Assembly (NCBI GenBank): GCA_963719225.1
Contig: CAVRAY010000002.1
Span: forward strand, 128,001 to 192,000
From: Thermoanaerobaculia bacterium
Lineage (GTDB): Bacteria; Acidobacteriota; Thermoanaerobaculia; UBA5066
DNA length: 64,000 nucleotides
Direction of reading: 5' to 3'
Below the pieces are notes generated by a model. The model worked only from the letters and a program-made list of their open reading frames with translations. It made no database searches and had not been told where the DNA came from. This document shows positions 49,756 to 50,349 of this stretch, piece after piece (within the stretch, counting starts at the first letter, position 1; every line of letters begins with the position of its first letter). Both the position numbers and the translations under genes were made by a program.

Positions 49756-49858
49756 GCGATGTCTCCGAATCTCCACGTCACGCGATCGTAGCCCGGATGC
49801 GCGACGCCGGTCGTGCGGCGTCGCGAAGGAAGGCGGGTGAAAAAAACTTCGCACGTCA

Positions 49859-49898
49859 AGAAAAAAATTCTTGATTCGTGCTCGAAACTCTCTACAAT
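49859..49898 (+). promoter_or_regulatory. Sigma70 promoter with UP-like A-tracts driving the K-rich mini-ORF transcript
   Basis: A-tracts at ~49840 and 49861-49867; TTGATT (49871), 16-nt spacer, TACAAT (49893). Confidence 0.65.
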
Positions 49899-49909
49899 TC
49901 GTTCAAGAA

Positions 49910-50056
49910 GAAAAAAGGACGGCGAGGCGATCACGAGTCGCTTCACCGTCCTTACGGAAACCCCGAGCTCTTTTGAAATCGATCGGCGACGAAAATTTTC
50001 TGGTTTTTTCGGCAGTCGACAGATTCGGAAAACGCGAGGTCCCCGTCCTTCGAGGG
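49910..50056 (-). ncRNA. Predicted ~145-nt structured cis-antisense small RNA (unassigned family)
   Basis: It has its own promoter (50063-50092) and an intrinsic terminator. An internal long hairpin ACGGGGACCUCG/CGGGGUUUCCGU relies on G-U pairs that only form on this strand; the apical stem is CGAAAA/UUUUCG. Confidence 0.6.
49911..49953 (-). terminator. Intrinsic terminator on the minus strand
   Basis: AAGGACGGTGAAGCGA-loop-TCGCCTCGCCGTCCTT followed by a T-run (plus-strand aaaaaa at 49911-49916). Confidence 0.7.
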
Positions 50057-50062
50057 GCGGCC

Positions 50063-50092
50063 AACCTAGCACGCGGCTTTCGGGACTGTCAA
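50063..50092 (-). promoter_or_regulatory. Sigma70 promoter on the minus strand
   Basis: Perfect TTGACA (50092-50087), 18-nt spacer, extended -10 TGc-TAGGTT (50068-50063). Confidence 0.65.
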
Positions 50093-50123
50093 TCAAATCT
50101 GCCAGGAGGAGGTGACAGACCAC

Positions 50124-50186
50124 ATGCCGGCTAAGAAGAAGGCTGCCAAGAAGAGCACCAAGAAGGGGAAAAAGGGTAAGAAGTAA
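50124..50186 (+). CDS. 20-aa lysine-rich peptide MPAKKKAAKKSTKKGKKGKK
   Basis: Below the ORF-track cutoff. Very strong SD AGGAGGAGGTGA 8 nt upstream, ATG...TAA, and a terminator just downstream. Confidence 0.8.
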   Translation: MPAKKKAAKKSTKKGKKGKK

Positions 50187-50230
50187 GTACCCACCTTCAA
50201 ACTGTTCCATTCAAGGTATTTCCGGGATTC

Positions 50231-50258
50231 GGGGGCTGGACCAGCCCCCTTATTTTTT
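50231..50258 (+). terminator. Rho-independent terminator after the mini-ORF
   Basis: GGGGGCTG-GAC-CAGCCCCC followed by TTATTTTTT. Confidence 0.88.
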
Positions 50259-50329
50259 GCCCGCGCGTTCCCGATCACGCCGCCAGGGCACAGGTTTTCC
50301 ACAGGCGATTCCAACCCTTATGCACCCCG

Positions 50330-50349
50330 GTATATAAACTTTTATATAC
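50330..50349. promoter_or_regulatory. Perfect AT-rich inverted repeat, probable PadR operator
   Basis: GTATATAAA-CT-TTTATATAC ending 7 nt before the PadR ATG. Confidence 0.65.

What the first reader, a model, noticed from the sequence alone, without database searches (positions are those of the whole stretch)
49910..50060. Strand-specific fold and a duplicated 8-mer suggest a switchable RNA
Seen: the minus-strand RNA can form a long irregular hairpin. It has a 12-bp ACGGGGACCUCG/CGGGGUUUCCGU helix with three G-U pairs that would be A-C mismatches on the other strand, then GUCG/CGAU and CGAAAA/UUUUCG stems, followed by a terminator. The plus-strand leader has its own G-U-dependent hairpin (50018-50090). 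CCGTCCTT occurs twice (49946 and 50043) and is complementary to AAGGACGG at 49915, so mutually exclusive pairings are possible. Inference: either a new sRNA family or an attenuator or riboswitch controlling read-through into mqnD (start 49755).
Basis: partly seen in the sequence, partly recalled or inferred. Interest (0 to 1): 0.7.

Follow-up and report, generated by a model that had tools for sequence, protein, structure and literature searches.

The report
Antisense RNA silencing a lysine micropeptide
This stretch likely makes a small RNA from the strand opposite the leader of a tiny lysine-rich peptide gene, and is predicted to switch that gene off by refolding its message over the ribosome binding site; the arrangement is conserved across one order of soil Acidobacteriota and is unlikely to be a menaquinone riboswitch.

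Summary
The minus-strand fold and terminator are real and conserved. The duplicated 8-mer is chance-level, and the mqnD riboswitch reading is not supported. The RNA (about 50055→49910, 145 nt) follows a near-consensus sigma-70 promoter (TTGACA, 17/18 nt, TGnTAnnnT) found in 70 of 70 homologous loci picked by the neighbouring peptide alone. It lies wholly inside the ~220-nt leader of an uncalled 20-aa Lys/Ala peptide gene (50124-50186) on the other strand. Both strands carry G·U-dependent, covarying helices. In the sense leader, the antisense promoter's own -35/extended -10 letters can pair either upstream (ribosome site open) or over the Shine-Dalgarno region (closed). Removing the part the antisense RNA covers shifts the predicted balance to closed in 46 of 57 homologs and never to open. 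mqnD has its own -10-like site in 42 of 48 loci. The module is restricted to one order of Thermoanaerobaculia and has no Rfam match. It is laid out like hok/Sok and ldr/Rdl, but the peptide is polycationic rather than hydrophobic, and toxicity is untested. No strand-specific expression data were available. This scan noted the same module before on other genomes.

The parts
50063..50092 (-). Predicted antisense promoter P-: -35 TTGACA (50092-50087), 18-nt spacer with TG at 50071-50070, -10 TAGGTT (50068-50063), then a GC-rich discriminator
   Evidence: (70 of 70 peptide-selected loci); the exact pattern occurs 3 times in the 4.75-Mb assembly, two being copies of this locus
49910..50055 (-). Predicted antisense small RNA, about 145 nt (5' end inferred from the -10 box)
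   Evidence: homologs 117-152 nt in family 1 and about 100 nt in families 2/3
49954..50046 (-). Closing helix of the antisense RNA (50046-50035 with 49965-49954), enclosing a variable inner hairpin
   Evidence: in the predicted fold of 26 of 27 family-1 RNAs and stronger on this strand in 26 of 27; 34 of 35 in families 2/3; covariation
49910..49953 (-). Intrinsic terminator of the antisense RNA; the same hairpin is the 5' stem-loop of the sense RNA
   Evidence: z -5.63; compensatory changes; 7-8 T in the 8 nt after the stem in 25 of 27
49871..49898 (+). Predicted sense promoter P+ (TTGATT-16-TACAAT), start near 49905
   Evidence: 8 or more of 12 consensus matches in 57 of 57 homologs against 645 of 2850 shuffles
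50011..50103 (+). Sense-leader 'open' fold: GGCAG 50011-15 with CUGCC 50099-103 and GACAG 50018-22 with CUGUC 50086-90, enclosing inner helices
   Evidence: G-U/A-U variation and a C-G to U-A change on the plus strand
50086..50118 (+). Sense-leader 'closed' helix: CUGUCA 50086-91 with UGACAG 50113-18, closing over the Shine-Dalgarno sequence GGAGGUGA (50108-50115)
50124..50186 (+). ORF for the 20-aa peptide MPAKKKAAKKSTKKGKKGKK
   Evidence: conserved in 134 of 175 genomes of the order; 13 synonymous against 2 amino-acid variants in 13 genus-level coding sequences
50216..50259 (+). Conserved 3' UTR motif GTATTTCCGGGA and intrinsic terminator of the peptide mRNA
49785..49790 (-). mqnD's own -10-like hexamer TACGAT (flanking, not part of the module)

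Best explanation
The minus-strand element is likely a cis-antisense RNA that is predicted to repress translation of the 20-aa lysine-rich peptide encoded on the plus strand. Two promoter-like sites face each other. P+ would give a ~355-nt mRNA (5' hairpin, ~220-nt leader, peptide, terminator); P- would give the ~145-nt RNA that covers the leader's first ~150 nt and stops at the shared hairpin. The leader is predicted to be bistable. The segment that reads as P-'s -35 and extended -10 on the other strand (CUGUCA here; CAYCUC in families 2/3) pairs either with upstream GGCAG/GACAG, leaving the ribosome site open, or with the Shine-Dalgarno region, closing it. The antisense RNA starts just downstream of its own promoter, so it covers the upstream partner but cannot cover the anti-SD segment; binding would therefore lock the closed form, and the long duplex may also be cut by RNase III (inferred from hok/Sok). 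Shown: conservation, synteny, strand-specific covariation, promoter and terminator patterns. Predicted: folding energies. Inferred: transcription, binding, repression, peptide function.
For: P- in 70 of 70 loci picked by the peptide pattern alone (70 of the 134 matches were examined). Its -35 is invariant, the spacer is 17 or 18 nt, and the -10 is TAnnTT with variable middle letters. Antisense closing helix, families 2/3: 9 pairs, 94.9% paired, 67 G-U cells against 3 A-C; whole structure 0 of 500 shuffles. Family 1: 26 of 27. Sense helices vary by G-U on their 5' strand (A/G in 10 of 21 and 4 of 35) while the TGTCAA strand never varies. Cost to open SD-to-start in the nascent leader rises by more than 1 kcal/mol when the covered part is removed in 22 of 22 (8.5 to 14.2) and 24 of 35 (7.3 to 10.4), falls in none, and exceeds the shuffled-segment mean in 57 of 57. 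Open and closed folds of the window leader lie 0.83 and 0.54 kcal/mol above the ensemble. Closed helix in family 1: 86.8% paired, 10 compensatory cells (3 of 500 shuffles), A-U/U-A and G-C/C-G swaps. Same layout as hok/Sok and ldr/Rdl (PMC8594479 and PMC4147584, passages).
Against: No strand-resolved transcript evidence: the RNA runs were contigs only. The U tract after the hairpin is weaker in families 2/3 (3-7 T in 8 nt, mode 4). The occlusion test is a folding model: only 18 of 22 and 15 of 35 homologs reach p<=0.1 individually, and in full-length mRNA 3 of 35 move the other way. Only 2 pairs of the closed helix change on both sides, a count 493 of 500 shuffles reach, and the genomes are related. 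Part of the family-2/3 anti-SD (CA) is already fixed by the TG of the extended -10. The free leader is itself fairly closed in the model (7-9 kcal/mol), so another trigger may set the balance. No test of peptide function or toxicity.
Confidence: 0.62

Rival explanations
1. The antisense transcript exists, but acts mainly by transcriptional interference between the two facing promoters or by duplex-triggered mRNA decay. Its fold only stabilises it and the SD switch is incidental.
For: The two promoters face each other about 165 nt apart, and P- is among the closest-to-consensus promoter patterns in the assembly. Full complementarity suits RNase III decay, as for hok/Sok (PMC4147584, passages).
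Against: The freed segment closes the SD more than shuffles in 57 of 57, and the closed helix has compensatory changes outside the SD and -35.
Confidence: 0.15
2. The minus-strand RNA is a trans-acting sRNA (or protein-binding RNA) in its own right, with targets elsewhere; the overlap with the peptide leader is secondary or serves to titrate it.
For: Own strong promoter and terminator, and a conserved fold that a pure antisense RNA would not strictly need. In families 2/3 the conserved CUGUCGCUGCCG sits in the large apical loop.
Against: That conserved stretch is the complement of the sense helix strand GGCAG/GACAG, so the sense fold already explains it. The rest of the body varies widely in family 1. 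No trans-target search was run.
Confidence: 0.1
3. P- is the promoter of mqnD and the RNA is an attenuator or riboswitch controlling read-through.
For: mqnD lies downstream on the minus strand in 100 of 101 loci with enough flank. Six of 48 loci lack a scored mqnD -10, among them the three family-3 representatives and L123, so read-through may feed mqnD there. Weaker U tract in families 2/3.
Against: No conserved antiterminator: the 8-mer alternative costs 10.4 kcal/mol, the terminator pair probability is 0.9997 and the repeat is not conserved. mqnD has its own -10-like hexamer in 42 of 48 loci (no shuffle control). The peptide-to-mqnD distance ranges from 238 to 604 nt. 19 of 19 mqnD loci of other orders lack the neighbouring peptide gene and the RNA model finds 0 of 70 such genomes.
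Confidence: 0.07
4. There is no antisense RNA. TTGACA and TGCTA are conserved only as parts of the sense-leader structure, which is switched by a ligand or by the peptide itself.
For: TGTCAA and TAGCA do sit in or beside sense helices, and the leader is bistable on its own.
Against: It does not explain the G-U-dependent minus-strand helix, the U tract on the minus side, the fixed 17/18-nt spacing, or the TAnnTT pattern.
Confidence: 0.06

Closest known systems
hok/Sok and ldr/Rdl type I toxin-antitoxin loci (PMC8594479 and PMC4147584, passages read)
   Same: Antisense RNA fully overlapped by the mRNA and located 5' of the ORF, inside a long structured leader, not covering the SD or start codon; small peptide; SD/anti-SD pairing; mRNA length in the 200-400 nt range.
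   Different: The peptide has about 11 positive charges, no acidic and almost no hydrophobic residues, so it is not a membrane peptide. No conserved mok/ldrX-type leader ORF. The RNA is longer (100-150 nt against about 60 for Rdl). Single copy at a fixed chromosomal site across an order. Toxicity untested.
Chlamydia HctA / IhtA (PMC3469542, passages read)
   Same: A small RNA of about 105 nt holds down translation of a histone-like, genome-binding protein until it is needed.
   Different: IhtA is trans-encoded at a separate locus; here the RNA is cis-encoded and fully complementary. The target here is a 20-aa peptide. No sequence relationship was tested, and nucleic-acid binding is only inferred.
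6S RNA (RF00013)
   Same: Long irregular hairpin from a strong sigma-70-type promoter.
   Different: No match at E<=10 in this region; the assembly has a full-length 6S RNA elsewhere; the RNA here is shorter and its inner part is not conserved.

Membership tests
Type I toxin-antitoxin system | Antisense RNA gene complementary to the peptide mRNA, with own promoter and terminator | tested here: met
   Met at sequence level. Transcription itself not shown.
Type I toxin-antitoxin system | SD sequestration by an anti-SD element in the mRNA | tested here: met
   Predicted and partly covarying.
Type I toxin-antitoxin system | Protein product is toxic and the RNA neutralises it | not testable with these tools
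   Needs expression with and without the RNA.
Hok/Ldr-type (membrane peptide) families | Small hydrophobic peptide of a known toxin family | tested here: not met
   One L/I/V/F/W/Y residue in total among 36 distinct peptides; no Pfam or NCBIfam match.
Hok/Ldr-type (membrane peptide) families | Leader ORF (mok/ldrX) under the antisense RNA | tested here: not met
   No conserved SD-led start in the leader of 57 homologs.
Any Rfam family (riboswitch, sRNA, antitoxin) | Covariance-model score at the gathering threshold | tested here: not met
   0 hits in the window; only sub-threshold hits in the region and in 6 homolog loci.
Transcription attenuator / riboswitch for mqnD | Conserved structure mutually exclusive with the terminator | tested here: not met
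   closing helix and terminator coexist in the predicted folds.
Transcription attenuator / riboswitch for mqnD | Regulated gene depends on the leader promoter | tested here: inconclusive
   Own -10-like hexamer in 42 of 48, not scored in 6; no transcript data.
Transcription attenuator / riboswitch for mqnD | Ligand-dependent read-through | not testable with these tools
   Needs in vitro termination assays.
6S RNA | RF00013 match and sole 6S-type gene | tested here: not met

The most novel reading that the evidence does not exclude
A type I toxin-antitoxin-like core module whose effector is not a membrane peptide but a fixed-charge (+11) protamine-like peptide that condenses the nucleoid or blocks ribosomes on entry to dormancy. 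It is controlled by an antisense RNA whose own promoter letters double as the anti-Shine-Dalgarno element of the message, so one DNA segment encodes both the repressor's promoter and the repression helix.
Probability: 0.25. Interest if true: 0.8.

Novelty: new variant of a known kind. Interest (0 to 1): 0.58.

Why it matters
It would add an undescribed antisense RNA family and an uncalled, near-universal small gene to a widespread group of soil Acidobacteriota with almost no RNA biology. The control layout is that of type I toxin-antitoxin loci, but the cargo is a purely cationic peptide with conserved net charge, which points to nucleic-acid condensation or translation control rather than membrane damage. 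The whole module is about 400 bp with sigma-70-type promoters, so every step can be tested in laboratory E. coli. The dual use of promoter letters as anti-SD gives a compact, testable design for an RNA switch.

Tried and rejected
6S, SRP, tmRNA or RNase P in disguise: each is present elsewhere in the assembly; no tRNA/tmRNA in the window. 8-mer switch: rejected. Expression: 20 of 23 listed runs hold part of the stretch, none half of its words. Six runs were laid; all are contigs of relatives, give no strand or ends, and several cross both promoters, so DNA or read-through cannot be told apart; no conclusion drawn. RNAalifold on the family-1 alignment did not recover the closing helix because of indels, and the family-1 half mis-placed the terminator (5 of 22); it was redone per sequence. 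Scripts 27, 44, 59 and 63 stopped with errors; only their printed parts are used. The peptide was scanned in the wrong frame and redone in frame (no family); the exact peptide is not in the 15-billion protein collection; no language-model search was obtained for so short a peptide. Outside the order: 4 of 299 genomes matched the loose peptide pattern, all starts of longer unrelated proteins. Viral contigs: 54 pattern matches, none a credible model hit (best 23.4 bits, 32% GC). No trans-target search and no tree-based covariation test were run. Literature: eight searches, seen as listings only, showed no title or abstract start describing this RNA or peptide; most subscription papers and all supplements were not searched, so a motif listed only in a supplement could have been missed.

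Full report
Observation. The minus strand 50058-49910 folds at -59.4 kcal/mol (z -3.13), but the terminator carries most of that (z -5.63; body alone z -0.86), so single-sequence folding does not prove the body. Rfam gives no hit at the gathering threshold in the window and only weak hits at relaxed E. 6S, SRP, tmRNA and RNase P RNAs are encoded elsewhere in the assembly.

Context. The region lies between mqnD (minus strand, start 49755; PF02621) and a padR-type gene (plus strand, 50357; PF03551). Between them is an ORF at 50124-50186 for MPAKKKAAKKSTKKGKKGKK with a strong SD and a terminator at 50231. It has no Pfam or NCBIfam match and is not in the protein collection. Named records carrying the same locus are Thermoanaerobaculia and other Acidobacteriota. 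A pattern for SD plus the first codons finds it in 134 of 175 genomes of the order, almost always once. A looser pattern finds 94 of 101 genomes of the order against 4 of 299 elsewhere in the class, those four being unrelated longer proteins. A covariance model of the leader finds 9 of 10 in-order and 0 of 70 other genomes. mqnD is upstream in 100 of 101 loci and padR downstream in 101 of 101 loci with enough flank. Among 36 distinct peptides (18-28 aa), 32 have exactly 11 K/R and none has an acidic residue; genus-level coding sequences show 13 synonymous against 2 amino-acid variants.

Two facing promoters. On the minus strand, TTGACA (50092-87) and TGn-TAGGTT (50071-63) precede the RNA. The pattern is present in 70 of 70 loci chosen by the peptide alone (these are 70 of the 134 matches). 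Over 114 of 116 distinct leaders (two were cut by contig ends, and part of this set was found with the pattern itself) the -35 is always TTGACA, the spacer 17 or 18 nt, and the -10 TAnnTT with variable middle letters, followed by a GC-rich stretch. The exact pattern occurs three times in the 4.75-Mb assembly, twice at copies of this locus. On the plus strand, TTGATT-16-TACAAT (49871-98) lies just beyond the terminator hairpin. A site with 8 or more of 12 matches is found there in 57 of 57 representatives (43 with 9 or more), against 645 and 125 of 2850 shuffles. The predicted ~145-nt minus RNA is therefore wholly inside the ~220-nt leader of the peptide mRNA and does not cover the SD.

Both strands are structured. 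In 35 family-2/3 representatives the minus-strand closing helix has 9 pairs, 94.9% paired, with 67 G-U cells against 3 A-C; the whole structure has 8 pairs with changes on both sides and beats 500 of 500 shuffles and all slid controls (relatedness is not corrected). It appears in 34 of 35 predicted folds, and the body is more stable than its reverse complement in 35 of 35. The U tract is weaker in families 2/3. On the plus strand, GGCAG/CUGYC and GACAG/CUGUC are kept in both groups with G-U and compensatory changes, and only the upstream strand varies while the TGTCAA strand does not, as expected if that strand is also a -35 box.

The 8-mer and mqnD. An 8-mer repeat arises in 1542 of 5000 shuffles, and this one is kept at 8 nt or more in 5 of 22 and 0 of 35 representatives. 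Forcing the alternative pairing costs 10.4 and 11.7 kcal/mol. mqnD has a -10-like hexamer close to its start in 42 of 48 loci (no shuffle control), and 19 of 19 mqnD loci from other orders lack the peptide gene and padR nearby. Read-through could still feed mqnD in the few lineages that lack that hexamer, but nothing conserved makes the terminator switchable.

The conserved switch is in the sense leader. CUGUCA (50086-91) can pair upstream with GACAG or downstream with UGACAG (50113-18) across the SD. In the window the two folds lie 0.83 and 0.54 kcal/mol above the ensemble. In family 1 the closed helix is 86.8% paired with 10 compensatory cells (3 of 500 shuffles), though only 2 pairs change on both sides, which 493 of 500 shuffles reach. 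In families 2/3 the equivalent is CAYCUC with GAGGUG: four pairs in 35 of 35, and the two further pairs in 32 of 35 each, partly fixed by the extended -10. Removing the part that the antisense RNA covers raises the cost of opening SD-to-start by more than 1 kcal/mol in 22 of 22 and 24 of 35 nascent leaders, lowers it in none, and exceeds the mean of 40 shuffles of the freed segment in 57 of 57; 18 of 22 and 15 of 35 reach p<=0.1 singly. In full-length mRNA it rises in 21 of 22 and 27 of 35 and falls in 3 of 35. These are model results.

Mechanism. Most likely the antisense RNA binds the leader, strips the upstream partner from the anti-SD segment, which it cannot itself cover because that segment is its own promoter, and locks the ribosome site closed; decay of the duplex may add to this. 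The peptide's charge and composition suggest that it coats nucleic acid or other polyanions (inference). No expression evidence was obtained: the available RNA runs are contigs without strand.

Comparison. [quoted passage not shown] It fails their peptide type and leader-ORF features, and toxicity is untested, so it works like such a locus but is not filed as a member. Chlamydia IhtA/HctA is the nearest functional analogy, but IhtA acts in trans (PMC3469542, passages). Eight literature searches, read as listings, showed no description of this RNA. Two unchecked earlier notes of this scan describe the same module in other genomes. My antisense reading was recorded, before either note was shown; they are not independent support, and one supplied the IhtA paper. 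Verdict: a real, conserved, undescribed antisense RNA and leader switch on an unusual peptide gene; a new variant of a known kind; interest 0.58.

Noticed in passing
G000:C2:640142-640540 (outside the window): A second copy of the locus (76% identical) lies in an inverted block of at least 70 kb that is 70-85% identical to the window's region and also holds a second tmRNA gene. With 6.2% contamination, contig C2 probably contains DNA of a related species rather than a true duplication.
   Followed up: partly
window 50331-50348: Palindrome TATATAAACTTTTATATA just upstream of the padR-type gene, with a TATAT-N8-ATATA counterpart in the other families; likely an autoregulatory operator overlapping the padR promoter.
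   Followed up: no
window 50216-50227: The 3' UTR motif GTATTTCCGGGA is nearly invariant in family 1 and resembles the leader strand GCUUUCGGGA, so it could pair back to the leader (a 5'-3' long-range contact); it is not kept in families 2/3.
   Followed up: partly
window 49841-49875: Phased A tracts and the inverted repeat TCAAGAA-N5-TTCTTGA upstream of P+, conserved in family 1 and in family 3: possible UP element or regulator site.
   Followed up: no
family-2 loci, e.g. L029, L040, L081: A second plus-strand promoter-like site (TTGACW-17/18-SASAAT) about 60 nt upstream of the first, giving tandem promoters for the peptide mRNA.
   Followed up: partly
L004, L006, L123; contigs in runs X11-X14: Some close relatives lack about 70 nt that hold mqnD's own -10-like site, so mqnD there may depend on read-through or another promoter.
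   Followed up: partly
L281 and L310 (IMG/VR contigs): Two identical viral stretches encode a 20-aa Lys/Gly peptide, MAKKGKGKGKGGGKGKGKGC, behind a strong SD; the upstream region does not match this leader.
   Followed up: partly
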